64,000 nucleotides of DNA from an uncultured virus (IMG/VR IMGVR_UViG_3300033121_002286) (taxonomy: Duplodnaviria > Heunggongvirae > Uroviricota > Caudoviricetes): IMG/VR virus record IMGVR_UViG_3300033121_002286; one strand, written 5' to 3'. Positions 39,157 through 55,989 of the stretch are shown here, one piece after another; the first letter of the stretch is position 1, and each line of letters starts with the position of its first letter. A program made the position numbers and the translations under genes. The notes under the pieces are model-generated. The model saw only the letters and a program-made list of their open reading frames with translations. It did not search any database and was not told where the DNA came from.

Positions 39157-39182
39157 CTACTACGGAGGTTTTTATTTAATTG

Positions 39183-39265
39183 TAGCGGAAGGAGGACTCG
39201 AACCTCCGAGGCGTTATGCACTAGATTATGAGTCTAGACCGATGACCATCTTCGGACATTCCGCA
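39183..39265 (-). tRNA. tRNA-Met(CAT), 1:72 mismatch, enlarged variable region
   Basis: TGCGGAA/TTCCGCT-A; CTAGA-CTCATAA-TCTAG; GGAGG-TTCGAGT-CCTCC. Confidence 0.85.
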
Positions 39266-39310
39266 ATATAATTGTAAATATACATAAATAATTTTATAAT
39301 GCAATAGATA

Positions 39311-40153
39311 TTAATCATTATAAAAATTATTTTCTTCACGCTCTGCTTTTAAGACAGATTTATTTATGTTAGATCCAGAGGTCACATTGCTTTTAAGTAA
39401 ATTTTTAATTTTAGACAAAAAACTTTCAGCCCCCTTGTTTACAACAGGAAGTTCTTTTATTCTTTTCTCAGAAATTTTTCTAAAGGCTTTATCCAACCTT
39501 TCTCTTTGGTTCATAGTTAAGCTCATTTGAAATGCAAATTTAATGGTTTCTAATTTATAAATATTCAAATTTATTTGATTTTTATCAACGAGTCGTTGTT
39601 AATTGCTTTCCTAACATATCTCATCAGGGTAATGCATTTGATTGAAGCTGGAAACGTAGAAGTCCCAACGTCATCTCTGTCATTCATGTCAACAGGAAAC
39701 ATGTATTGATTACCCGATTCAGTAATAACCTGATAATACAACACACCGGCAATGGCATGTGATAAGTTGGCCATATTGTTGTTTCCAACAATATCTTTCA
39801 GATCGAATTTGTTTTCATTTTGTGTTTTAATTTGTGTCATCGTTTTTGTTTATTAAATTGTTTTTAAGAAATAAAATTACTTCATCAATCATATCAAGTT
39901 TGGTGATTTTTTGAGAATACATGTGGTATCTACCAGTAAAATCAAATACTGTATAAAACAATATAAATCCTCCAGATGGAGTTCTGTTATATTGAACCCA
40001 AATTGTATCTATCCAATCAAATTCAGTTCCAACTAATCTTTCTGGAATTATTGATTGAATATTCCAAACATTATTAAAGTGTTCTCTTTCTCTTTCAGAA
40101 TATTGTGCACTAGGAGAATAGATTGCGTATAGATTTTGACCTCTTGTTCTCAT
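39311..40153 (-). other. three small hypothetical CDSs (39311..39568, 39571..39840, 39827..~40153)
   Basis: Co-oriented ORFs downstream of the Lys tRNAs. Confidence 0.6.
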
Positions 40154-40167
40154 TTTTTTTATTTTTG

Positions 40168-40253
40168 TCCTCCCAGTGGGACTCGAACCCACGATGGACT
40201 TTTACATCACCTGCTTAAGAGGCAGATCCAATCGCCACTATGGAGATGGGAGG
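40168..40253 (-). tRNA. tRNA-Lys(CTT) with long variable arm
   Basis: CCTCCCA/TGGGAGG-A; CTGC-CTCTTAA-GCAG; GTGGG-TTCGAGT-CCCAC; 86 nt. Confidence 0.85.
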
Positions 40254-40259
40254 AAGTTG

Positions 40260-40347
40260 TGTACCTGGTGGGATTCGAACCCACGATGCAACTTACGTTG
40301 GACGGTTTAAAAGACCGATGTATTCGACCAGCTCTACGCACAGATAC
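40260..40347 (-). tRNA. tRNA-Lys(TTT) with long variable arm
   Basis: GTATCTG/CAGGTAC-A; CGGT-CTTTTAA-ACCG; variable hairpin CAAC-GTAA-GTTG; 88 nt. Confidence 0.85.
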
Positions 40348-40354
40348 ATTTTTG

Positions 40355-40438
40355 TACAGATGGTGGGACTCGAACCCACGATGGATTATTAATCTCCGGT
40401 TTAAAAGACCGTTCCAATCGCCACTATGGGACATCTGC
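40355..40438 (-). tRNA. tRNA-Lys(TTT) with long variable arm
   Basis: GCAGATG/CATCTGT-A; CGGT-CTTTTAA-ACCG; variable hairpin GATT-AAT-AATC; 84 nt. Confidence 0.85.
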
Positions 40439-43712: not shown

Positions 43713-45125
43713 CCACCTTCTTTGAAGGTGGTAATATCCTTATGGTTTTGCTTGGAATTAATAAAAAACAAATTAACCAAAAATATTTGTGGTTAAAATA
43801 ATTTTTTCATATATTTATACTTAGAAATTAAAAATGCTTAAAACTTATAAATATAGAATTTCGCCAACCCAAAAGCAAAAACTGCTCTTGGAAAAGCATT
43901 TTGGTGCTGTTCGGTTTGTTTATAATTTAGCACTGGAGACAAAAACAATAGCTTATTCTTCTATTAAATACAACATATCTAGATATGAACTTCAAGAACA
44001 ACTGCGTGATTTAAAAGAAGGATATGAATGGCTGAAAGAAATAAACAGTCAGTCTTTGCAATTCTCTTTACTTAACTTAGATGTAGCTTACACAAACTTT
44101 TTTAAAGGCAGGGCAAAGTTTCCAAATTTTAAAAACAAATATTCTTCTAAACATAGTTTTCATTGTCCACAAAATATTGCCATTGAAAATGGTTTGATAA
44201 CTTTACCGAAATTTAAAGAGGGAATAAAAATAAAATTGCATAGAAAATTTTTTGGAGAAATAAGAAATGCCACGGTAAGCAAAACCTCAACAAATAAATA
44301 TTTTGTATCCATTTTAGTGGATACAAAAGAGAGCACTCCAGATAAACTTTTAATCGAAAAGCAAACAGCAGTTGGAATAGATATGGGAGTTAAAATCTTT
44401 GCCACGTTGTCAAATGGAGAAGATATTCCCAATTCGACTTTTTTAAAATCTTCATTGCAAAGACTAAAAGTTTTGCAAAGGAGATTATCCAAAAAGAAAA
44501 AGGGAAGTGCAAACAGAAAAAAATCAACATTAAAATTAGCGAAGCAACATGAAAAAATAGCAAACCGAAGAAAAGATTTTCTTCACAAAACAACAAATGC
44601 GATAACCAAGCAATATAATACAGTTGTTATTGAAGACTTGAATATAAAAGGAATGAGTGCAAAGTGCAAATCTCAAAAAGATGAGAATGGAAAATACATT
44701 CACAACGGACAGTCAGCAAAGACAGGATTGAACAGATCTATTCTCGATGCTGGCTGGGGCATGTTTGCAGAATTTCTGAAATATAAATGCGAGTGGCGTG
44801 GAAAGAATTTTATCCAAATTGGAAGATTCGAACCTTCTAGTAAAATACACAATGGGTGTGGTTATTATAACCACTCTTTAACTTTACAAGAGAGAGAATG
44901 GATATGTCCAAAATGTGGTAAGTTGGTTGACAGGGAAAAAAACGCAGCATTAAACATATTAGATTTTGGATTAAATCCAAAGCAAAAACAAAAAGATTCA
45001 GGTGTGGAACGCACCGTTGAGCCTGTGGAGTTGCCGACAATGGTTAGGACTGTGAAGCAGGAAAAATTTATGGTTAAGTCTTGTACTTAATTATAATACT
45101 ACCTGCTTTGCAGGTGGTTGTTCAC
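43713..45125 (+). mobile_element. IS200/IS605-family (IS1341-like, TnpB-only) element
   Basis: Hairpins CCACCTTC-TTT-GAAGGTGG (43713..43731) and ACTACCTGC-TTT-GCAGGTGGT (45098..45118) then TGTTCAC; no tnpA; left boundary uncertain. Confidence 0.7.
43834..45090 (+). CDS. tnpB: RNA-guided endonuclease TnpB family protein
   Basis: YKYRISPT..FG.VRFVYN, VGIDMG, VVIEDL, SSK..CG..WICPKCG..DREKNAALNI. Confidence 0.93.
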   Translation: MLKTYKYRISPTQKQKLLLEKHFGAVRFVYNLALETKTIAYSSIKYNISRYELQEQLRDLKEGYEWLKEINSQSLQFSLLNLDVAYTNFFKGRAKFPNFKNKYSSKHSFHCPQNIAIENGLITLPKFKEGIKIKLHRKFFGEIRNATVSKTSTNKYFVSILVDTKESTPDKLLIEKQTAVGIDMGVKIFATLSNGEDIPNSTFLKSSLQRLKVLQRRLSKKKKGSANRKKSTLKLAKQHEKIANRRKDFLHKTTNAITKQYNTVVIEDLNIKGMSAKCKSQKDENGKYIHNGQSAKTGLNRSILDAGWGMFAEFLKYKCEWRGKNFIQIGRFEPSSKIHNGCGYYNHSLTLQEREWICPKCGKLVDREKNAALNILDFGLNPKQKQKDSGVERTVEPVELPTMVRTVKQEKFMVKSCT

Positions 45126-45199: not shown

Positions 45200-46786
45200 A
45201 TGAAAAATTTAATAAAAACACTCCGTATAAAAATTAAAAATCAATTAAGGGAAAACCTTGAGGATGAAATTGAAAATAAGTGGATAAGTATTTGTTCTAA
45301 GCACAAAGAATATGAACCAGGATGCAGTCTTTGCAATAAAAAAGTAAGATTAAGTGAAGATTTTGAAAGGAATAAAATAATTGCCGGGGAAATAATCAAG
45401 CAACTTGGTGGATTTGGTAAATTAAAATCAATGACCGGTGCTCACACTTTCGTAGCTCACGAAAGTGGGGTTTCTTTTAAAATAAAAAATCCAAAAGCAA
45501 ATTATATCAAAATAATATTAAATGGGAATGATAATTATGATGTGGAAGTTGGAAGAATAAGAGGAATGGATTATAAAGTTTTGGTTAGTGAAACAGATAT
45601 TCCTGCTGAAGGTTTAAAAAATTTAATTGAAAAAAGCACAGGTATGTATCTTTCTTTGTTTGAAAATGGGGTGAATGCTTTATGGAGAAAAGATTTTGAA
45701 AACCAAATAAAACCGGAAGAAGAACGGGATAAAACTTCTGAAATTGAATCAGAAATAGAAATGAGAATGAGTCCTTCTTGGGACGCACTTCCATACTCTG
45801 AAATAAATGAAATAGCCGAAACCTACGGGGTTGACTTTGAAGATGTTTTAAATATAATGCAATCTTATTTAATCAAAAGAAACAATGAGAGAGTTTCTGA
45901 TTTAAAATATTGGGTTAAAGAATTGTTGGATCAATTTGAAAATTCGGGAAACGATAATCCTTCTTGGCAAGAGTTTTATTTAATGTGGACAAAAGAAGGT
46001 TTTCAACATGAAAATTCTTGGGCAACAGAAGGTGATGTAGAAACGGAATACAAAAAACAAACTTCAGATCCAAACCAACTTTCTCTATTTGAAAATTTAA
46101 TAAAAAATTACTTAATAAAAGAATTATATGATAACTTCGGAGATGAGGGATCTCAACCTGGAGATGCTGAATATCATCATGATATGGGACACAATAAAGC
46201 CAATAATGGTAGAGATGTATTTGCCAATATAGATTGGAAAGTATTTTGGGAAACCCTTATAAACAACACAGAAATAACTAAAGATAAAACAAGAGAAGGT
46301 ATTACATATAATGTTTCTGATTTAACAGATGATGATGGGTTTTTAAGCTTTGATAGTTTGAAACATTTGGAAGATTATGGTTTAATTTATAATTGGGATG
46401 GCATTCCTATTATTGATGAACCTGAATATTTAGATTTCAATAAATTTTATAATAAAGCAAAAGAAATTTGGCTTAAAGATGTTAGGGTAAAAAATGACCC
46501 ATCACACGAACCATCTCCTTATTATAGAGGCAATGAAGATTCAATGCTTGAGAATGATTTGCCAGGAGAAAATATAGAATATGAAGTCAAATATGATAAA
46601 TTGGTTGATGGGGAGTACGAACCAAGCAAAGCGTTTTTTAAAGATTTAAAAATGGCAATAATGTTCGCCAAAGAAAAATATGCGGCAATAAGATATACCA
46701 AAACACTTTCAGATGGAAGAGAGGAAACTGGCTATGTTAACGTATCAGATCCTTCTTATCCTTTAATACCTGATAAAAGATTTTAA
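45200..46786 (+). CDS. acidic multi-module hypothetical protein with internal LxE linkers
   Basis: LRE, LSE, LFE, IKE, MLE boundaries; IIKQLGG..MTGA module; DPNQLSLFE. Confidence 0.7.
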   Translation: MKNLIKTLRIKIKNQLRENLEDEIENKWISICSKHKEYEPGCSLCNKKVRLSEDFERNKIIAGEIIKQLGGFGKLKSMTGAHTFVAHESGVSFKIKNPKANYIKIILNGNDNYDVEVGRIRGMDYKVLVSETDIPAEGLKNLIEKSTGMYLSLFENGVNALWRKDFENQIKPEEERDKTSEIESEIEMRMSPSWDALPYSEINEIAETYGVDFEDVLNIMQSYLIKRNNERVSDLKYWVKELLDQFENSGNDNPSWQEFYLMWTKEGFQHENSWATEGDVETEYKKQTSDPNQLSLFENLIKNYLIKELYDNFGDEGSQPGDAEYHHDMGHNKANNGRDVFANIDWKVFWETLINNTEITKDKTREGITYNVSDLTDDDGFLSFDSLKHLEDYGLIYNWDGIPIIDEPEYLDFNKFYNKAKEIWLKDVRVKNDPSHEPSPYYRGNEDSMLENDLPGENIEYEVKYDKLVDGEYEPSKAFFKDLKMAIMFAKEKYAAIRYTKTLSDGREETGYVNVSDPSYPLIPDKRF

Positions 46787-46968
46787 AAACTATTCTTCGA
46801 TAATAGAACAATTATCTTTTCTGACTCTTACAGTTTCTTTCCTTTCTCTTTTGGGATCATAATATTCTCCAATATAAGAGTCTGAATTTTCCTTTAATAC
46901 ATTAACAATTCCATCTTTTGGGACCATCAAAGCATCCCTGTTGTTTTTAAGCTTAACTTTCATTTCTT

Positions 46969-47598
46969 TCATTTTATGTTTATTAATTTTTCAATAAAGT
47001 TTAAATCATTTTTTCTTTTTTGCATATATTTTTCATACATGAATTTTCCGTAATTGGTCATGGGTTTCATTCCCTCAATAAATTTAACATATAACATGGG
47101 AGAAGTTTTAAAATTTAAATTCATTTCCTGAGAAAGGCCATAAAAAACCTGTTGCAAATAATTATTTTCATACCATTGCATCAAATCACAGTCTCTAATT
47201 ATTTTTTGCTCTAAAAAAAGTTCATTTTCAGAAATAACATAAGGGTATTGTGTGGCCTTTATTATTTCAACTATTTTTTCTGAATCAATTTCAGATTCAA
47301 CACTATATTTCCAAAAAGAAGAAATGGAATTTTTTACATTCACATCATCAGTAAATTTCCCGGCAGAATGGTTGAAGTCATGGAACAAAGCAGCGATTAG
47401 CAAAAGTCTTGTTTTCTTTTTTTCTAATCTTTCTTTTTTAGAGGCTCTGTAACAATTTGTAAAAACTGTGAGTATATGGTAATTATTGTGATATGGATTT
47501 GTTGCGCCTGTATTTTCAGTAAGTAAAATATGAAAATAAAACTCCAATTTAAAAATTTGGATTATTCTTAAATACTCACTAACAATTAGTTTTTTCAT
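46969..47598 (-). CDS. HD-domain phosphohydrolase / PDEase-like protein
   Basis: NPYHNNYH, AALFHDFNHS, IRDCDL; start reassigned to MKKLIV after TAnnTTTG at 47605. Confidence 0.85.
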   Translation of the reverse strand: MKKLIVSEYLRIIQIFKLEFYFHILLTENTGATNPYHNNYHILTVFTNCYRASKKERLEKKKTRLLLIAALFHDFNHSAGKFTDDVNVKNSISSFWKYSVESEIDSEKIVEIIKATQYPYVISENELFLEQKIIRDCDLMQWYENNYLQQVFYGLSQEMNLNFKTSPMLYVKFIEGMKPMTNYGKFMYEKYMQKRKNDLNFIEKLINIK

Positions 47599-47626
47599 CA
47601 GGATCAAAGATACAAATTTTAAAATT

Positions 47627-47663
47627 AAAAAACCCCGAAAAACTAGGTTCTTCAGGGTTTTTT
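47627..47663. terminator. intrinsic terminator closing the large ncRNA transcript
   Basis: AAAAAACCCCGAA..TTCAGGGTTTTTT. Confidence 0.8.
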
Positions 47664-47669
47664 GATGCC

Positions 47670-48660
47670 AACTAGGTTTTTCCTTTATGATAGAAGTTTT
47701 TATGTCTTCTAAGTTGGTCTTGGTAATGTCGTTAAAATAGTCTGAGACTACAACTATTTTTTGAGAGTCTCTGAGAGCATTATACCTTTTGGGCTTCTCT
47801 CTTTTATCCACAGATATTTCTACCTGTATCTCTCATCCTCAATGTTTCGAAATCAGCGAACTGACTTCCGGATATCAACCGTATCGTGTGCGATATTCGA
47901 CAAACTATTCCATCGTCAAGGCTTGCATAACCCTGGTGCGACAGCTTCATCTATCAAACTATCCATGCTTGGAGAGCGAAGATAGCACTCTGTTACATTA
48001 TCCACTCCGAAGAGTGGCAAGCGGTCAGAGCTTTAGAGGACTTTGTTCAACACACGTTACCAGACTTTCTCTTGTATAATGTATATGTTATAATAGAGAT
48101 TATACCTAAACCGAGCATTGGAAGACGAGCTGGTAAGTGAAGTTCCCTGGCTTTTGACCAGCGAATGCTTCTCGCCTTCCTGTGAGACTGCGAATCTCAC
48201 CACAACATAACGATCAACCACCTCAGTACTTTAATTGTTTTTTGCAACCAAAGCCAACTCATCGTTTAATTGTTTGCACAACCAACTGCATAAGCAGTGA
48301 ATGAGAAGTTCGACCTATATATTGTTGGCCAATGCATTTGTCATGTTGCACATAACTTACACATTATTTAAATACGATTTTTTGAACCGCATATAAACCA
48401 CACTCCATGTCTGAAGCATGAACGCCCTGACTTTCTCCTGTTGTCTGTTAAAACTCAACAACCGTCTCGGAACGATTGTCTGGTGTTTTTGAAACACACC
48501 AGGTACTAATCAGTGTTTGGGTGTTCTCCGCCATGCGGAGCGTATCTGCCTGCCCCTCTAAAACATGCTTTCACACATTAAGAGGTAAAGGTATATCAAC
48601 GACAGATACCTATAGTCCCATTGCTGGGGTTTACCTTAAGGGTGCCAAACCACCCTATAA
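47670..48660 (-). ncRNA. large (~1 kb) structured ncRNA, GOLLD-like candidate
   Basis: No credible ORF, raised GC, many hairpins (CCACTC-TTCG-GAGTGG, GTGAGATT-CGC-AGTCTCAC, CTGGTGT..ACACCAG); bounded by promoter, tRNA-like gene, boxA and terminator; family identity unverified. Confidence 0.7.
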
Positions 48661-48687
48661 TCTTAAATCAAAGAACGTTTTCTTTTG

Positions 48688-48785
48688 TCGGGAAACAAGG
48701 ACTTGAACCTCATTCTCTTAGCCTAATGTCCACAAGTTTTGACACCTGCGACCATACGACCCGTGCTACCAGTACACCAGCCCCG
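48688..48785 (-). tRNA. degenerate tRNA-Pro-like RNA with insertion in the anticodon arm
   Basis: CGGG..CCCG-A ends, GTGTACTGGTAGCAC D arm, AGGTTCAAGTCCT T arm; ~25 extra nt forming CGCAGGT/ACTTGTG stem. Confidence 0.5.
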
Positions 48786-49021
48786 ATTTTAAATTTTAGA
48801 CTTCACTACCTAAACTAACCTAACCTACAATAGTAGGTATTTTTCAAAAAATGTGTCAAATCATATTTTATTAATTTGACTCTGCAAATATACACACGAT
48901 TTTTCTTTTCGCAAGTGTTTTGCAAAATATTTTTCTTTTTTGTTTTCAACAAATAAATTGTTCATTGTTAATAATAGTTAAGTTGCTGAAAACCATTTTT
49001 TTATAAATTAAAAATTAAACT

Positions 49022-49297
49022 TTAAATTGCAGATTGTTGATTTTCAGCACTTTGATTTTCTATGTTGAATTCAAACTCCAAATTTTCTTTCATACAGTTG
49101 CACTTTATAAAACCAAAAAATTTGTTTTCAGATCTTTTACATTCAACAAATAAACCTTCTAAAGAAATATCAGAAGTCTTTAATATATAATCTGATAGTG
49201 CTTTCGATTCGTCTTCTGCAAGATCACCTGTGTGATTATAAAAATATTTTTTCAAAAGATTGGAAATGTATCTCTCAACAGATTTCAGATAAATCAT
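49022..49297 (-). CDS. hypothetical protein
   Basis: 91-aa ORF. Confidence 0.55.
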   Translation of the reverse strand: MIYLKSVERYISNLLKKYFYNHTGDLAEDESKALSDYILKTSDISLEGLFVECKRSENKFFGFIKCNCMKENLEFEFNIENQSAENQQSAI

Positions 49298-49388
49298 TTT
49301 TCTTTTCCTTAAAACTATTTTGTTGCGTTTATTTTCGTTTTTGGATCGGTATACGCAATTAGTTGCGTATATATTATGTTATAGGTAA

Positions 49389-49562
49389 TTAAAAAATTGA
49401 TTTCAACCGTTTCCACCACGATTTCCATCTGAACCTAACTATTGTATCACATATCATACATTTATCCATTGTATAATGCTCCGTATTTGTGTAAACGATA
49501 TTACGGAAATCGTTGCAGTCGTGCTTAGGAAAAGTTACTGCGTTGTCTTGTTCTTTATTCAT
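49389..49562 (-). CDS. cassette 1 small protein (57 aa; HDC and CxxC motifs)
   Basis: MNKEQDNAVTFPKHDCNDFRN..KCMICDTIVRFRWKSWWKRLKSIF fills the cassette. Confidence 0.65.
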   Translation of the reverse strand: MNKEQDNAVTFPKHDCNDFRNIVYTNTEHYTMDKCMICDTIVRFRWKSWWKRLKSIF

Positions 49563-49579
49563 AATCAATTTTTCAACAT

Positions 49580-49680
49580 ACCTATAACAAAGTGTATAAG
49601 TAATGTGGCTAATTAAATTTATCTGTAAGTCGAAAGTATGTGCAAAGCCACACTACTCATACACTCGACCGTTATATGCA
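49580..49680. repeat. attC-like site 1
   Basis: CCTATAAC-AA-AGTGTAT.AGTA.TGTGGCT..AGCCACA.TACT.ATACACT-CGACC-GTTATAT. Confidence 0.8.
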
Positions 49681-49751
49681 ATGCTACGTTATCACTTCGT
49701 ATTAAGTTTTGTGGTTAAATCTTTTTGTTTTATTTTTTTCCACCCACACAA

Positions 49752-50411
49752 TTATAAATCAATAAGTTTTACTTGACCATATTTATCTTGCATTAAATTA
49801 TCACCATGAAAATCTACATAATTAAAACCAAATGCTTGTTTGTATTCTTGAAATGCTGATTGTATATCATTAATAAAAGTTTCATAATCACTATAATTTT
49901 CATAAAACCATTTTAATTTATCAACATATTGTTTTTCTGAAATACTATCAATATCAGTCTCTTCCATCAATTCTTCTACCTTTAAATAAAGGTCATCACG
50001 TAAATTATCTTCTAACCAAACATCTAAACCATCTTCATCATTAGTGTAGAATAAATAATCAATGCAATCTATGATGTTTTTTTCTTCTTGTGAAATTGGT
50101 AATAAAACTTCCATAACAACACAATATTTACCATTGATTTTCCTAACATCATAGACTGTCGGTAAATAATCATAGTATTCATCTATAAGTGCTGAATAAT
50201 CACCAACCATTTCAGTTCGTATATTTAATGCAAAATTACCTTTGTTTGTGATTATTTTATATGTTTTACTATAATCACCACTACCCAAGTCAGTAATATT
50301 ATTCACTACAATATTATTTTCTTTAAAGTATTGTAGATATTCTTCATCGTGATTTAATTGTTCATTCAAATATTCACGTATAGTAGTTGCTATAAATTTT
50401 CTTAATTCCAT
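49752..50411 (-). CDS. cassette 2: protein-kinase-like (APH/PKL fold) protein with LRKFIATTIREYLNE leader
   Basis: LGSGDYSKTY, VVMEVL, DFHGDNLM, VKLID. Confidence 0.75.
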   Translation of the reverse strand: MELRKFIATTIREYLNEQLNHDEEYLQYFKENNIVVNNITDLGSGDYSKTYKIITNKGNFALNIRTEMVGDYSALIDEYYDYLPTVYDVRKINGKYCVVMEVLLPISQEEKNIIDCIDYLFYTNDEDGLDVWLEDNLRDDLYLKVEELMEETDIDSISEKQYVDKLKWFYENYSDYETFINDIQSAFQEYKQAFGFNYVDFHGDNLMQDKYGQVKLIDL

Positions 50412-52425: not shown

Positions 52426-52953
52426 TTAATTTATCGTTATATATTTTATTGGAACACTGTCTGTCAAATAAACGTTGTTGTTTGATTTATAAAAGGTAAA
52501 ACCATCATTATTCATTTGAACGGCATCTATTTTTAAAACGACAGGCGATCCATGTCGCTTACCAACATTGATAGCTGTTTCAAGATTATCAGACAAATGT
52601 ACGTGATTTCTTGATTGTTTGGTTAGACCTAAATCCATAATTGATCCAAGAAAGCGATGTGCGGTTCCATGATACAAAAAACCGGAAGGAATAAATGGTT
52701 GGAGTTCCACATCCACTTCTACACTATGCCCCTGCCTGGCTCTTATTCTTTGTTGATGCTGGTCAAACTCAAACCTTTTTTTATCATTAGTTTCAACAAT
52801 TTCATCAAGTTCTGTTTTTTTTATTTTTAAAATTTTTAAAATGTCAGAAACATTTGCCCAACCCTTATCACTTAAAACTATCCCAACAGATTCGGGGTCA
52901 TGCCTTAAAATTTTTGATAAAAATTTGCTTTGCCTTTGTAATTCTTTTCTCAT
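52426..52953 (-). CDS. kptA: RNA 2'-phosphotransferase Tpt1/KptA
   Basis: SKFLSKILRHDP, NDKKRF, IRARQGHS, LYHGT, RNHVHLS, VGKRHG. Confidence 0.95.
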   Translation of the reverse strand: MRKELQRQSKFLSKILRHDPESVGIVLSDKGWANVSDILKILKIKKTELDEIVETNDKKRFEFDQHQQRIRARQGHSVEVDVELQPFIPSGFLYHGTAHRFLGSIMDLGLTKQSRNHVHLSDNLETAINVGKRHGSPVVLKIDAVQMNNDGFTFYKSNNNVYLTDSVPIKYITIN

Positions 52954-52961
52954 TGGTATTT

Positions 52962-52988
52962 AAACGGTTAAAAGTTATAAAAGTTACA
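52962..52988 (-). promoter_or_regulatory. ECF-sigma-type promoter TGTAAC-N16-CGTTT
   Basis: Exact motif 8 nt upstream of the kptA start. Confidence 0.7.
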
Positions 52989-55900
52989 AACTTTTCTTTT
53001 TGCTTAAAACAATTTGCAACAAATCATCAAAAACACTATGTTTAACAGAGTTCTCTCTGTGTTCACCATCTAAAATTTGCATTGTTATTTTTTCTTTTTT
53101 ATTAAGCAACTCTTCGATATATTCATCTATTGTGTCTTGAACAACAAGCCTTATAATTTGTACATTATCCGATTCTTGTCCTGCCCGATGACAACGATCC
53201 TCAGCCTGAATTCGATCTGATGGTGTCCATGGCTGATCAATAAAAAGGACAGTACTGGCTGATGTCAAAGTAAGACCAACACCTGCAGCACCAATAGTTC
53301 CTGAAAACACCTTTTTCTTTTCATCTTCCATGAATTTTTCTCTTGCTTCTTCCTTTTCCTCAGCCGATTTTTTCCCGGTATACCAAACAGCATTGTCTTT
53401 AAACTCCTCATATATCATTCGTGTTGTTTCAACATATTGAGAAAAAACAACAACCTTTTCATCTCCATCAATTATGTTTCTTATAAATTCAAATGATCTT
53501 TGGGCACAAATTTTAGAAGTAAACATTTTTAATTTCTGAATTTTTGCCAAACCAACCATCCTATCATCATCTTCAGAGGTATCTTCAACAACTCCTTTTT
53601 CTAATTTTTTATATTCCCTTAATTCTTCTGGGGTTAAATAAATTGGAATTATTGTATATGTTTTTGCTGGTAAATATTCTAAAACTCCAGGATCTTTTTT
53701 TCTTCTTCTTAAATATAAATAAGATAATTTTTGAAACAACTCTGCTTCATTCGTAGAATCATCATAATTCCAATGTCCCCACTCATCTTCTTTACCGCCA
53801 CAATATTTTACTCCAAAACTGTGTGAGTTAACCCATTCAAAGGGATCAAGAAAGTTTAATACAGGAAAAAACTCATAAGGCTTGTTTTTAATGGCAGTTC
53901 CAGACATTAAAATTTTTCTTGGTGTCTTTTTAAATCCAGCATTAACAAGCTTGTATCTGCTCGATTTTACATTTTTGATATAATGACAATTAGATACCAG
54001 TATATTATTTGCATAATAATTATGATTGTCTGAAATTTCTAAATTAAAAACTTCTTTATTTCCAACACAACCGCTTCTATTGAATTGTCTATTTCCTGAT
54101 TCCAGAATCTCAATACTTTCCACCCTAGAAAATTCAATATTTCCGTTTTCCTCTTGTCCAAAAATTTCCATTTTTTCATTAGATGCGTTTTTCCATCTAC
54201 CTCTATTGATAATTTCAATTCTGGAAATGCCAAATCCACTTTGTAATGATTTGGCAAACTTTTGAAAAATCCCCTCGCTGGCCTTGTTTTTATTGGATAT
54301 TCCATTACCCATCCTTCTCCCAAAGAATCGTATAACCTTTGTTGCTGTTTTGTTATTTGTCCATTGCCACCTCTTGATAAAAATGTTTTTCCAACTGAAC
54401 TCTTTTTCATTTTTTCTATGTTTTTTTGATCCGCCATAGGGTTGTTCAATTTCATTCGAATTGAAGATTTTTGGGCTCTTGCAGGGTTGTTCTGATAATT
54501 TTTTAAATTTGACTCTTTTACTTTTCGCTTGGTTTCTTCCGTATATATCTTTGCCCTTATTTCCGGTTGGGACATTCTCCATTTTGCAGAACAATTCGTT
54601 GAACAAAATCTTCTTTTTTGAGATTGTTTTCCGTTTGATTTTATTTTGAATGTTTTTCCACACCATTGACATGATTTTACTATCAAAGGCTTTGAATTTC
54701 GTTTCTTTACTGCCAATTTTGATTTCTGGGTGTTCATAATTGTTTTTGAGGCGCAACTCACACTGCAATATTTTCCCTTTTTCCATATTTGCTTTTTGCT
54801 CAGCGGTTTTTGACAACACCCACACAGTATCTCCAGTTTTAATTTCTTCTGCTCTGACATATTTGTTTCCGTTTATATAGATTTTGTGATTTGGAGTGCA
54901 AACGATATCTTGTCCATTGTTTGTTCTTATTTTTAACAAACAAGATGATGTTTGCTTCTTTATATATCTGTTTATTTTTTTATATTCATTTTTTTTTGTA
55001 ATATGATTATAACTTAGTACTTTAAAATCTAAATTAAATTCAACCAAATCTCCTATTGGAACATTACCAAATTCGGTCATAATATTTGTTTCATAAACAA
55101 AGCATTCATCAATTACGACCAAATCATAAATTGATGTTTTTAAATCCACACCACCCTTGTCAACAAAACTACACAATTCTGTATTCCTAGATTTAACAGA
55201 ATTTTCTTTAAAACACTTGGGACACATTTTGTGTTTTTTCACCTGGCTCACTTCATCAAAATCACAATAAGGATTTTGACATTTATGATGAACGTCAAAC
55301 TTCAAATAAGTCTCTAAAGCATTATAACTTACAATGTGAATTTTACTTGTTTCTGGACTGCCCAATTGTAGTCCTTCTTTTTTCTTTATCTTATATTTAA
55401 AGACATATGGTACCTCATGTGTAAATTTCAAAATTTCCTTTGCCCAAATAAGCGCAAGAGAGGCAGGACATATAATTAAAGTTTGGAAGTGGTGTTTGGC
55501 TGAATATGAAATTGCTGTAAGGGTCTTGCCCACACCTGGCTCATCCCCCAACAAAGCTACACCATCAGAACATTCAAAAAATTTAACAGCTTTCTTCTGA
55601 TATAAATAAGGCTCGATCTTCATAAAAGAATAATCCTCATTTTTTATTTCCTCATCAAAATCTCCATTCTTAAATTTTTCTACCTGGATTAATCTTTCTT
55701 TTCTTTTTTTAACATACTCTTCAACTTTCCAAATTTCTTTTTCTGATAAATTTTCGTATTGATATAAAATGTGATTATCTTGACAATACCACATTATTTT
55801 CATTAATCCGTGAATGTTGCAAATATGAAACCAATCTTTTTTAGACTGTCCACTATCCGTAATTACAGTGTCAAAAGCGGTCTTAATCTGTTCTTTGGAT

Positions 55901-55989
55901 ATGGTTTTAAGGTGTTTTATGAGTTCTTCGTCATACCCAAACCTGACCTGAAAATTGGTCCTTATACGTTTAATCTTGACTACTGGCAT
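52984..55989 (-). CDS. SNF2-family (SMARCAL1/HARP-like) helicase with intein
   Basis: DEPGVGKT, IICPASL, VIDE|CH, MSGTA, KVVVFS, AAGVGLTLT, QAEDRCHRAGQ. Confidence 0.92.
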   Translation of the reverse strand: MPVVKIKRIRTNFQVRFGYDEELIKHLKTISKEQIKTAFDTVITDSGQSKKDWFHICNIHGLMKIMWYCQDNHILYQYENLSEKEIWKVEEYVKKRKERLIQVEKFKNGDFDEEIKNEDYSFMKIEPYLYQKKAVKFFECSDGVALLGDEPGVGKTLTAISYSAKHHFQTLIICPASLALIWAKEILKFTHEVPYVFKYKIKKKEGLQLGSPETSKIHIVSYNALETYLKFDVHHKCQNPYCDFDEVSQVKKHKMCPKCFKENSVKSRNTELCSFVDKGGVDLKTSIYDLVVIDECFVYETNIMTEFGNVPIGDLVEFNLDFKVLSYNHITKKNEYKKINRYIKKQTSSCLLKIRTNNGQDIVCTPNHKIYINGNKYVRAEEIKTGDTVWVLSKTAEQKANMEKGKILQCELRLKNNYEHPEIKIGSKETKFKAFDSKIMSMVWKNIQNKIKRKTISKKKILFNELFCKMENVPTGNKGKDIYGRNQAKSKRVKFKKLSEQPCKSPKIFNSNEIEQPYGGSKKHRKNEKEFSWKNIFIKRWQWTNNKTATKVIRFFGRRMGNGISNKNKASEGIFQKFAKSLQSGFGISRIEIINRGRWKNASNEKMEIFGQEENGNIEFSRVESIEILESGNRQFNRSGCVGNKEVFNLEISDNHNYYANNILVSNCHYIKNVKSSRYKLVNAGFKKTPRKILMSGTAIKNKPYEFFPVLNFLDPFEWVNSHSFGVKYCGGKEDEWGHWNYDDSTNEAELFQKLSYLYLRRRKKDPGVLEYLPAKTYTIIPIYLTPEELREYKKLEKGVVEDTSEDDDRMVGLAKIQKLKMFTSKICAQRSFEFIRNIIDGDEKVVVFSQYVETTRMIYEEFKDNAVWYTGKKSAEEKEEAREKFMEDEKKKVFSGTIGAAGVGLTLTSASTVLFIDQPWTPSDRIQAEDRCHRAGQESDNVQIIRLVVQDTIDEYIEELLNKKEKITMQILDGEHRENSVKHSVFDDLLQIVLSKKKSL
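53989..55104 (-). mobile_element. intein (372 aa) inserted in the DE|CH box
   Basis: Starts CFVYET, block B CTPNH, ends VFNLEISDNHNYYANNILVSN followed by Cys. Confidence 0.92.
54039..54860 (-). CDS. DUF559/Vsr-like endonuclease encoded out of frame inside the intein
   Basis: CGCC..YCSVSC, CQWC..FCSTNC, RMKLNNPM, YKVDLA..IEVDGKTH..DKRK..GWKVLRFWN. Confidence 0.85.
   Translation of the reverse strand: MSEQKKLKLEILCGCCQKPLSKKQIWKKGKYCSVSCASKTIMNTQKSKLAVKKRNSKPLIVKSCQWCGKTFKIKSNGKQSQKRRFCSTNCSAKWRMSQPEIRAKIYTEETKRKVKESNLKNYQNNPARAQKSSIRMKLNNPMADQKNIEKMKKSSVGKTFLSRGGNGQITKQQQRLYDSLGEGWVMEYPIKTRPARGFFKSLPNHYKVDLAFPELKLSIEVDGKTHLMKKWKFLDKRKTEILNFLGWKVLRFWNQEIDNSIEAVVLEIKKFLI

What the first reader, a model, noticed from the sequence alone, without database searches (positions are those of the whole stretch)
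47627..48892. Stand-alone ~1-kb structured RNA operon arranged like an rRNA unit
Seen: promoter (TTGC..TATATTTG, 48885), a tRNA-Pro-like RNA with an expanded anticodon arm, boxA-like CGTTCTTTGA, about 1 kb of GC-elevated ORF-free hairpin-rich sequence, then a terminator. Known: giant phage ncRNAs such as GOLLD and ROOL are tRNA-associated and of unknown function. Inference: a GOLLD-like or new giant RNA, on the long side for those classes.
Basis: partly seen in the sequence, partly recalled or inferred. Interest (0 to 1): 0.7.

Follow-up and report, generated by a model that had tools for sequence, protein, structure and literature searches.

The report
Phage GOLLD RNA with rRNA-style leader
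This gene-free kilobase of a large phage encodes a member of the known cage-forming GOLLD RNA family, set up like the spacer of a ribosomal RNA operon (a tRNA-shaped element, then a boxA signal, then the big RNA) and found as RNA in wastewater samples.

Summary
Window 47627-48892 (minus strand) is a self-contained RNA gene.

Its 3' half (47739-48180) matches Rfam GOLLD (RF02032) over the whole model. The score is 151 bits against a cut-off of 150, E 8e-42. Its 5' half aligns with the start of the 5' domain of other viral GOLLD RNAs. So this is a new member of a known family. It is neither a new class nor unusually long.

The "boxA-like" motif is real. Exact GTTCTTT[GA]A sits in the same slot in 53 of 77 independently fetched viral GOLLD loci. 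The same 9-mer follows tRNA-Ala and precedes 23S rRNA in 18 of 18 checked bacterial rRNA spacers.

The "tRNA-Pro-like" element is a tRNA-shaped RNA with no anticodon loop. In its place is a 14-bp arm capped by GUCAAA, which the closest relative conserves. It is probably a processing signal.

RNA contigs from four metatranscriptome studies cover 47748-48649 without a mismatch.

GOLLD's biological function remains unknown.

The parts
48885..48914 (-). Candidate promoter: TTGC (48914-48911), 18 nt, then TATATTTG (48892-48885), a TAnnTTTG-type box. An alternative sigma-70-like pair, TTGACA/TACTAT, lies at 48859-48830.
   Evidence: Sequence read; scan (7 sites against 6.6 expected, so not beyond chance). 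A TAnnTTTG box lies within 70 nt upstream of boxA in 44 of the 53 boxA-bearing viral GOLLD loci. That TAnnTTTG is the Bacteroidota -7 box is recalled, not tested.
48787..48878 (-). 5' leader with hairpins, including ACCUACUAUUGUAGGU at 48838-48823
   Evidence: Fold (-18.8 kcal/mol, z -2.67); hairpin also flagged. The transcription start is inferred, not mapped.
48687..48786 (-). tRNA-like element: acceptor stem, D arm (GUGU/GCAC), T arm (loop UUCAAGU), and a 14-bp arm (4+3+7 bp) capped by GUCAAA in place of the anticodon arm
   Evidence: Not called by ARAGORN or by Rfam tRNA at E<=10. The closest relative L142 has the same layout, the same D stem and the same GUCAAA loop on a different-sequence 16-bp arm. 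Its 3' end lies 877 nt before GTGGATA. That is the slot where 17 of 77 other loci hold a real tRNA, 16 of them tRNA-Met.
48668..48677 (-). boxA-like motif CGUUCUUUGA, 11 nt after the tRNA-like element
   Evidence: position. 53 of 77 viral GOLLD loci hold GTTCTTT[GA]A 650-950 nt before the 3' motif. In 74 loci with full flanks the exact 9-mer falls in that bin in 46, against 0-3 in each of nine other bins. The same 9-mer lies between tRNA-Ala and 23S in 18 of 18 checked rRNA spacers.
48181..48656 (-). GOLLD 5' domain, about 475 nt, starting with hairpins GGGUG..CACCC and CCCA-GCAA-UGGG
   Evidence: Aligns with the 5' start of 13 other viral GOLLDs and 4 relatives, with covarying hairpins. Helices 1-18 lie here, and 13 of those 18 helices have pairs with changes on both sides.
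47739..48180 (-). GOLLD conserved 3' region (closing hairpin with UCAAAAG loop, AU-rich linker, pseudoknotted 3' domain)
   Evidence: Rfam RF02032, model 1-416 of 416, 151 bits (cut-off 150), E 8e-42 / 2.7e-40. One model hairpin (positions about 253-271) is absent and two loops are longer.
47748..48649 (-). Stretch found as RNA-library contigs (the likely stable RNA)
   Evidence: Contigs without a mismatch: 47748-48649 (X9, depth 150), 47774-48645 (X12), 47794-48079 plus 48097-48641 (X19), and 47830-48640 in 3 pieces (X20). These are four metatranscriptome runs from four studies.
47618..47738 (-). 3' tail with a weak hairpin, then an intrinsic terminator (stem 47663-47627, U run to 47618)
   Evidence: -20 kcal/mol, z -4.08; tail hairpin -10.2 kcal/mol, z -2.40. 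The pattern scan missed this terminator.

Best explanation
The region is the gene for a GOLLD RNA of a large, probably Bacteroidota-infecting phage from wastewater or activated sludge.

Shown:
- The 3' half is a full-length match to the GOLLD family model.
- The 5' half begins like other GOLLD 5' domains.
- The body of the RNA (about 0.9 kb) occurs in RNA libraries.
- The gene is bracketed by a tRNA-shaped element plus a GUUCUUUGA motif upstream and a strong intrinsic terminator downstream.

Inferred mechanism:
1. A promoter near 48.89 kb gives a precursor of about 1.25 kb.
2. The GUUCUUUGA motif is identical to the boxA found after tRNA-Ala in 16S-23S spacers. It loads host NusB/S10 and the rRNA-type antitermination complex on RNA polymerase. 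This lets the polymerase run through some 30 hairpins and helps the giant RNA fold as it is made.
3. The tRNA-shaped element has kept its acceptor, D and T arms but lost the anticodon loop. RNase P and a tRNA 3'-end nuclease cut it, which frees the 5' side of GOLLD.
4. By homology with the solved GOLLD env-38, the mature RNA assembles with copies of itself into an RNA-only cage during lytic growth. What the cage does is unknown.
For: Family membership:
- Rfam GOLLD, 151 bits against a cut-off of 150, model 1-416 of 416, E 8e-42, pseudoknot arms complementary.
- It is the only GOLLD in the window at E<=0.05.
- The 5' domain start aligns with 13 other viral GOLLDs, with covarying hairpins.

Structure across six relatives:
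- 192 pairs, 86.4% of cells paired against 37-44% when the partners are slid.
- 65 pairs changed on both sides against 14-19 in the slid controls; 0 of 500 shuffles reach this.

boxA:
- 53 of 77 loci that were fetched by a 3'-end pattern only carry GTTCTTT[GA]A in the same slot.
- In the binned control the 9-mer falls in that bin in 46 of 74 loci, against 0-3 in each other bin.
- 44 of the 53 have a TAnnTTTG box within 70 nt upstream, and 30 of 53 have a small hairpin just before the motif.
- The tRNA-Ala .. GTTCTTTGA pattern gave at least 120 stretches in named bacteria of many phyla. All 18 of 18 that I checked lie between the 16S 3' end and position 1 of 23S.
- Published boxA consensus sequences: GYTCTTTAANA (PMC5725501, passages); E. 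coli UGCUCUUUAACA and B. subtilis AUGAUCUUUGAAA, the latter preceded by a small hairpin (PMC13753749, passages).

tRNA-like element:
-.
- It occupies the slot of the upstream tRNA in 17 of 77 loci.

Expression:
- 8 metatranscriptome runs hold 0.50-0.69 of the words of the stretch.
- Contigs of four runs from four studies cover 47748-48649 or less with 0 mismatches, and their 5' limits fall within 10 nt of each other at 48640-48649. The tool rates this a weak hint of an RNA end.

Cage formation:
- Kretsch et al., passages read.

Phage context:
- ClpB, DnaJ, TnpB, an SNF2 helicase with an intein, Tpt1 and a tRNA cluster.
- The best named phage hit for the nuclease is in Flavobacterium phages, at 28.5% identity.
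Against: - The Rfam score clears the cut-off by only 1 bit, and one model hairpin is missing.
- Within the window the 9-mer and the promoter-like sites are no more frequent than chance.
- No binding of NusB/S10, no antitermination and no RNase P or Z cut was tested. 24 of 77 GOLLD loci lack the exact motif, so it is not obligatory.
- RNAalifold can pair UCUUUGA with a conserved 3' junction. A structural role therefore cannot be excluded, although those columns never vary.
- The RNA evidence consists of assembled contigs. These cannot show strand, true ends or level, and no DNA run was laid beside them.
- The relatives used for covariation number only six, four of them close. The structure was also derived from the same alignment.
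- The host is inferred from weak similarity and a recalled promoter motif.
Confidence: 0.85

Rival explanations
1. The GUUCUUUGA motif is not an antitermination signal. It would instead be a structural piece of GOLLD (for instance a 5'-3' closing helix with the conserved 3' junction) or a sequence kept for some other reason such as processing.
For: Default RNAalifold pairs columns 17-23 (UCUUUGA) with columns 964-970 (UCA[A/G]AG[A/G]) in all six relatives. 24 of 77 GOLLD loci do without the exact motif. No Nus binding was tested.
Against: The pairing shows no covariation, because all the columns are invariant or vary on one side only. It is also absent from the second (ribosum) prediction. The 9-mer is identical to the one that follows tRNA-Ala in rRNA spacers of many phyla, and in 30 of 53 loci a leader hairpin precedes it, as in rrn leaders. 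The RNA contigs of four studies all stop 19-28 nt short of it (weak hint).
Confidence: 0.3
2. The tRNA-like element is a decaying pseudo-tRNA left over from a tRNA that once stood before GOLLD, with no present function. Alternatively it is a working tRNA whose long arm holds an intron.
For: Real tRNAs (16 tRNA-Met, 1 tRNA-Trp) occupy this slot in 17 of 77 loci. The acceptor stem has one mismatch. The relatives L135, L137 and L140 have more degenerate versions.
Against: The window and L142 are only about 66% identical over 672 nt of GOLLD. Even so, both keep the four-way shape, the identical D stem and the identical GUCAAA loop on arms of different sequence that still pair: 14 of 14 and 16 of 16 pairs. 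That points to selection. There is no 7-nt anticodon loop, no bulge-helix-bulge motif, and ARAGORN's intron mode finds nothing.
Confidence: 0.2
3. The region is a new giant RNA class that merely resembles GOLLD, or a decayed coding or intron sequence.
For: The Rfam score is only 1 bit above the cut-off. blastn finds no similar DNA in 50,697 phage records.
Against: The match is full length at E 8e-42 with the pseudoknot kept. The 5' domain is homologous too. Relatives of the same subfamily score 177-178 bits. No ORF above 96 aa lies inside. No intron family is hit at E<=0.05.
Confidence: 0.03

Closest known systems
GOLLD RNA (Rfam RF02032; env-38 cryo-EM structure, Kretsch et al. 2025, PMC12286853)
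   Same: Full-length match to the family model. Two-domain layout with a variable 5' and a conserved 3' region. Length above 800 nt. Phage context near tRNAs. An upstream tRNA slot, as for env-38, which lies downstream of tRNA-Met (passages).
   Different: Divergent sequence: 151 bits, against 177-223 bits for three other viral copies. One 3'-domain hairpin is missing and two loops are enlarged. The upstream tRNA is replaced by a non-decoding tRNA-like element. It has its own promoter-like region and terminator instead of sitting inside a tRNA array. Cage formation was not tested.
rRNA operon leader and 16S-23S spacer (boxA, NusB/S10 antitermination complex)
   Same: The order tRNA - GUUCUUUGA - large structured RNA is the order tRNA-Ala - GUUCUUUGA - 23S in 18 of 18 checked spacers. 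In other GOLLD loci the order is a small hairpin then boxA, as described for B. subtilis rrn leaders (passages).
   Different: No rRNA is present, no boxC was sought, and no Nus factor binding or antitermination was shown. The downstream product is a phage RNA of unknown function.
tRNA-like processing signals and tRNA punctuation (mitochondrial transcripts, MALAT1 mascRNA; recalled, not read here)
   Same: An acceptor/T-arm/D-arm shape without decoding capacity, placed exactly at the border of a long RNA. It could be cut by RNase P and RNase Z.
   Different: The context is bacterial phage. A long arm with a conserved GUCAAA loop replaces the anticodon arm. Cleavage was not tested.
ROOL RNA (the other phage nanocage RNA)
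   Same: A large, ornate, phage- and tRNA-associated RNA (passages).
   Different: No ROOL match in the window at E<=0.05. Its sequence and fold are distinct from GOLLD, according to the paper.

Membership tests
GOLLD RNA (RF02032) | Covariance-model score at or above Rfam's gathering cut-off over the conserved 3' region | tested here: met
   151 bits against 150, model 1-416 of 416, E 8e-42. This is a narrow pass.
GOLLD RNA (RF02032) | Pseudoknot and helices of the 3' domain | tested here: met
   The pseudoknot arms CGUGUG / CACACG are complementary and most helices align. One hairpin (model positions about 253-271) is deleted. Helices 20-28 keep pairing in relatives.
GOLLD RNA (RF02032) | A less conserved 5' domain of about 400 nt upstream of the 3' region, total length above 800 nt | tested here: met
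   About 475 nt (48656-48181). Its first two hairpins and joining sequences align with 13 other viral GOLLDs. Total length is about 920 nt.
GOLLD RNA (RF02032) | Phage or prophage location, often beside tRNAs | tested here: met
   Phage-like gene content. Six tRNAs lie 5-9 kb away on the same strand. A tRNA-like element abuts the RNA.
GOLLD RNA (RF02032) | Self-assembly into a 14-mer cage through kissing loops and A-minor contacts | not testable with these tools
   Known for env-38 only. The loops involved could not be mapped because the published GOLLD alignment is not held.
GOLLD RNA (RF02032) | Accumulates as a stable RNA | tested here: met
   Contigs from four RNA libraries of four studies cover 47748-48649 with 0 mismatches. 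Contigs do not give strand or true ends.
boxA / Nus-factor antitermination site | Sequence fits the boxA consensus | tested here: met
   GUUCUUUGAUU against GYUCUUUAANA gives 9 of 11 (consensus from PMC5725501). The core UCUUUGA is identical to that of B. subtilis AUGAUCUUUGAAA. The 9-mer is identical to the one in 18 of 18 checked rRNA spacers.
boxA / Nus-factor antitermination site | Lies in the 5' leader of a long non-translated transcript, conserved in position | tested here: met
   53 of 77 loci; 46 of 74 in one bin against 0-3 in each other bin.
boxA / Nus-factor antitermination site | Binds NusB/S10 and confers read-through of terminators | not testable with these tools
tRNA | Cloverleaf with a 7-nt anticodon loop, recognised by tRNA models | tested here: not met
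   No ARAGORN call, with or without introns. No Rfam tRNA match at E<=10. A 14-bp arm with a 6-nt GUCAAA loop stands in place of the anticodon arm.

The most novel reading that the evidence does not exclude
GOLLD genes are built as mimics of the rRNA operon. Most viral GOLLDs start with the same boxA that precedes 23S rRNA. This would let the phage borrow the host's Nus antitermination and RNA-folding complex, and the tRNA-end nucleases, to make its cage RNA. In this lineage the upstream tRNA has evolved into a dedicated non-decoding handle whose conserved GUCAAA-capped arm has a role of its own in processing or cage assembly. I found no paper in the searched library that holds both GOLLD and boxA in this sense. 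Weinberg et al. 2009 and the GOLLD alignment of Kretsch et al. could not be read.
Probability: 0.45. Interest if true: 0.6.

Novelty: new member of a known kind. Interest (0 to 1): 0.38.

Why it matters
GOLLD is one of very few natural RNAs known to build protein-free cages, and its function and biogenesis are open questions. This copy adds a divergent, environmentally abundant member that is seen in RNA libraries of four studies.

The comparison made here gives a testable idea of how such RNAs are made. An rRNA-type boxA is present in about two thirds of the viral GOLLD loci examined. tRNA or tRNA-like elements sit at the borders as cutting signals. If confirmed, this would tie GOLLD production to the host's ribosome-making machinery and would tell experimenters which leader to keep when expressing these RNAs in cells.

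Tried and rejected
- No whole genome is held for the window.
- blastn of the region against 50,697 phage records found no match.
- Looking for closer relatives: the pattern gave 0 loci. The 15-mer gave 82 loci, none related by blastn. In the end only L142 and the L135/L137/L140/L141 group were usable.
- Host clue from promoters: TTTG-N17-21-TAnnTTTG occurs 9 times against 6.3 expected in the window, which is not informative.
- boxA 9-mer in the window: 4 against 3.6 expected, which is not informative on its own.
- The long-range pairing of boxA with the 3' junction was not adopted. It has no covariation and is absent from the second prediction.
- Published GOLLD alignment: the supplement archive is held cut, and only the ROOL file is readable. 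The kissing-loop positions and the authors' 5' boundary therefore could not be compared.
- Earlier notes of the scan, searched by place and by sequence, gave nothing.
- Parts without RNA cover: 46500-47720 and 48720-49385 carry no contig in any of the four RNA runs, and X9 has one low contig at 49399-49668. The tRNA-like element, boxA, 3' tail and terminator are also uncovered. As the tool states, holes in contigs prove nothing, and I did not lay a DNA run beside them.
- The small ORFs inside the region (up to 96 aa) were not searched for homologues.

Full report
**What is there**

On the minus strand, window 47627-48892 holds, in order:
- promoter-like boxes (TTGC at 48914-48911, TATATTTG at 48892-48885; alternatively TTGACA/TACTAT at 48859-48830);
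- a 92-nt leader with hairpins;
- a tRNA-shaped element (48786-48687);
- the motif CGUUCUUUGA (48677-48668);
- about 920 nt of hairpin-rich RNA (48656-47739);
- a 75-nt tail;
- a 17-bp terminator hairpin with a U run (47663-47618).

GC content is 0.385-0.455 here, against 0.20-0.34 beside it and 30.4% for the window. No ORF above 96 aa lies wholly inside. The 280-aa frame that reaches in from the right is the run-on of a downstream HD phosphohydrolase gene. Its likely start is at 47604.

**It is GOLLD**

Rfam's GOLLD model (RF02032) matches 47739-48180 from the first to the last of its 416 positions. The score is 151 bits against a cut-off of 150, with E 8e-42 in the local search and 2.7e-40 in the whole-window search. 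The pseudoknot arms are complementary, one model hairpin is missing, and two loops are longer. This is the only GOLLD match in the window at E<=0.05, and no other family matches apart from six tRNAs.

The Rfam model covers only the conserved 3' region, so I tested the 5' half separately. I fetched 119 viral loci with a pattern taken from the 3' end of the family. Starting at the motif, the window aligns with 13 of them and with 4 closer relatives. The shared layout is an AU-rich spacer, a hairpin (GGGUG..CACCC here, GGCCG..GGUC elsewhere), UAAGGUAAAC, a second hairpin whose stem covaries (CCCA-GCAA-UGGG, CCAC-GAAA-GUGG, CUGC-GAAA-GCAG, CUCCGGUGACGGAG), and then AUAAAGUG-like sequence.

The closest relatives are a metagenome contig, L142 (66% identity over 672 nt), and a group L135/L137/L140/L141.

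I aligned these six sequences and kept the 192 base pairs common to two RNAalifold runs.
- 86.4% of cells are paired, against 37-44% when the partners are slid.
- 65 pairs change on both sides, against 14-19 in the slid controls.
- 0 of 500 shuffles reach the observed values.

The caveat is that there are only six sequences, four of them close, and the structure was derived from the same alignment.

The size is ordinary for the family. The motif lies 865 nt before the 3' GTGGATA box here and 684-921 nt before it elsewhere.

**The boxA-like motif**

Inside the window the 9-mer is no more frequent than chance, at 4 against 3.6 expected. Across the loci chosen by their 3' end only, the picture is different.
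- 53 of the 77 loci with enough upstream DNA hold GTTCTTT[GA]A 650-950 nt before the 3' box. These make up 49 distinct sequences.
- In 74 loci with 1600 nt on both sides, the exact 9-mer falls in that 300-nt bin in 46. It falls in each of nine other bins in 0-3, and its reverse complement in 0-3.
- Of the 53, 44 have a TAnnTTTG box within 70 nt upstream. 30 have a small hairpin just before the motif. One (L004) has a tRNA directly before it.
- 24 of 77 lack the exact motif, and 13 of those have a tRNA abutting the 5' domain instead.

The motif fits published boxA sequences. These are GYTCTTTAANA for gamma-proteobacteria (PMC5725501, passages), and E. coli UGCUCUUUAACA and B. subtilis AUGAUCUUUGAAA, the latter preceded by a small 5' hairpin (PMC13753749, passages).

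To test the link without relying on memory, I scanned bacterial genomes for a tRNA-Ala anticodon arm and T loop followed by GTTCTTTGA.
- I picked 18 of them for long flanks and spread of phyla. All 18 place the motif between the 16S 3' end, the spacer tRNAs and position 1 of 23S.

That the motif recruits NusB/S10 is inference.

One alternative is a helix between UCUUUGA and a conserved 3' junction, which RNAalifold predicted once. It has no covariation and was not reproduced.

**The tRNA-like element**

It has the following parts:
- an acceptor stem (6 of 7 pairs);
- U8;
- a D arm (GUGU/GCAC, loop with GG);
- a T arm (6 pairs, loop UUCAAGU);
- a 14-bp arm (4+3+7 bp with two 2x2 internal loops) capped by GUCAAA, where the anticodon arm should be.

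ARAGORN, with and without introns, and Rfam tRNA at E<=10 do not call it. The label tRNA-Pro therefore has no support.

L142 has the same shape, the identical D stem and the identical GUCAAA loop. They sit on a 16-bp arm of different sequence that still pairs, and its minimum-energy fold is a four-way cloverleaf (z -2.74).

The element ends 877 nt before GTGGATA. In 17 of 77 other loci a real tRNA (16 Met, 1 Trp) ends 780-940 nt before that box. 28 of 119 loci have a tRNA 8-21 nt after the GOLLD 3' end. L008 has acceptor/T-arm minihelices on both sides.

The simplest reading is that tRNAs and their degenerate descendants serve as RNase P and RNase Z cutting signals at GOLLD's borders. This was not tested.

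**Expression**

The stretch is held by 20 public runs of 12 studies, from activated sludge, wastewater, river and digester samples. Eight metatranscriptome runs hold 0.50-0.69 of its sampled words.

I laid four RNA runs from four studies on 46500-49800. Their contigs cover 47748-48649 (902 nt, depth 150), 47774-48645, 47794-48641 in two pieces, and 47830-48640 in three pieces, all without a mismatch. The 5' limits agree within 10 nt, which the tool rates a weak hint of an RNA end. The uncovered flanks are listed under Tried and rejected, as the tool asks. These contigs give neither strand nor true ends.

**Context and host**

The window looks like part of a very large phage. It encodes ClpB, DnaJ, a glutamate-synthase domain, patatin, TnpB, an SNF2 helicase with an intein, Tpt1, a PD-(D/E)XK nuclease and six tRNAs. 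The nuclease is closest to Flavobacterium phages at 28.5% identity. ClpB is closest to uncultured huge phages at 52%. A Bacteroidota host is a guess.

**What is known and what is new**

GOLLD was described in 2009 (recalled, not read). Its 14-mer cage was solved in 2025 (PMC12286853 and its preprint, passages). Those texts note tRNA neighbourhood, tRNAs in the linker, ribosome pull-down and unknown function.

A search for papers holding both GOLLD and boxA gave four plant papers only. A second search with Nus terms listed no GOLLD paper among the 15 shown of 664. Subscription papers and the GOLLD alignment supplement could not be read.

An earlier agent of this scan noted a boxA leader on a GOLLD in another genome. 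My counts were made independently.

**Verdict**

Two details are worth following up: the family-wide boxA and the non-decoding tRNA-like handle.

Noticed in passing
window 39182-40438 (-): Three tandem tRNA-Lys (CTT, TTT, TTT; 85-89 nt) and a tRNA-Met (84 nt) have long variable regions of 13-16 nt, with 3-5 bp stems in the Lys genes. Such arms are usual only for Leu, Ser and Tyr tRNAs in bacteria (recalled). The three Lys genes share one T arm. An RNA 2'-phosphotransferase (Tpt1) gene lies at 52426-52953.
   Followed up: partly
L127/L135 and L137 contigs (handles G001, G002); also L140, L141, L142: The closest relatives carry two GOLLD genes in tandem. An upstream copy scores 69-86 bits (full model), then comes a degenerate tRNA-like element and boxA, then a downstream copy scoring 177-178 bits. 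The window has only the second kind.
   Followed up: partly
L008 2490-2545 (-) and 1535-1595 (-): A 223-bit viral GOLLD is flanked on both sides by acceptor-stem plus T-arm minihelices (GGTTCGATTCC-type loops) that ARAGORN does not call. They look like minimal RNase P or RNase Z substrates.
   Followed up: partly
window 46969-47604 (-); L135, L137, L140 downstream ORFs: An HD-superfamily phosphohydrolase gene follows GOLLD directly in the window (phrog_16069, E 1e-28). An HD_4-like ORF (below Pfam's cut-off) follows it in the L135 group. The two proteins belong to different HD families.
   Followed up: partly
window 43834-45090 (+): A TnpB (IS605 OrfB / Cas12f-like) gene lies about 2.6 kb downstream of the GOLLD terminator (on the plus-strand map, to its left). 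Its guide RNA was not sought.
   Followed up: no
window 52984-55989 (-): The SNF2-family helicase is interrupted by an intein splicing domain (Pfam PF14890, E 8e-13).
   Followed up: no
Supplementary ROOL alignment of PMC12286853: A few ROOL rows begin with UUCUUUGA(C/A)AA at their 5' edge (6 occurrences in the part of the file that is held). The boxA leader may therefore not be limited to GOLLD.
   Followed up: no
window 48164-48144 and 48745-48740 (-): The apical loop of the tRNA-like long arm (GUCAAA, followed by A) resembles the conserved UCAAAAG loop of the hairpin that opens the Rfam GOLLD model (CUGG-UCAAAAG-CCAG). This could be a shared contact motif or coincidence.
   Followed up: no
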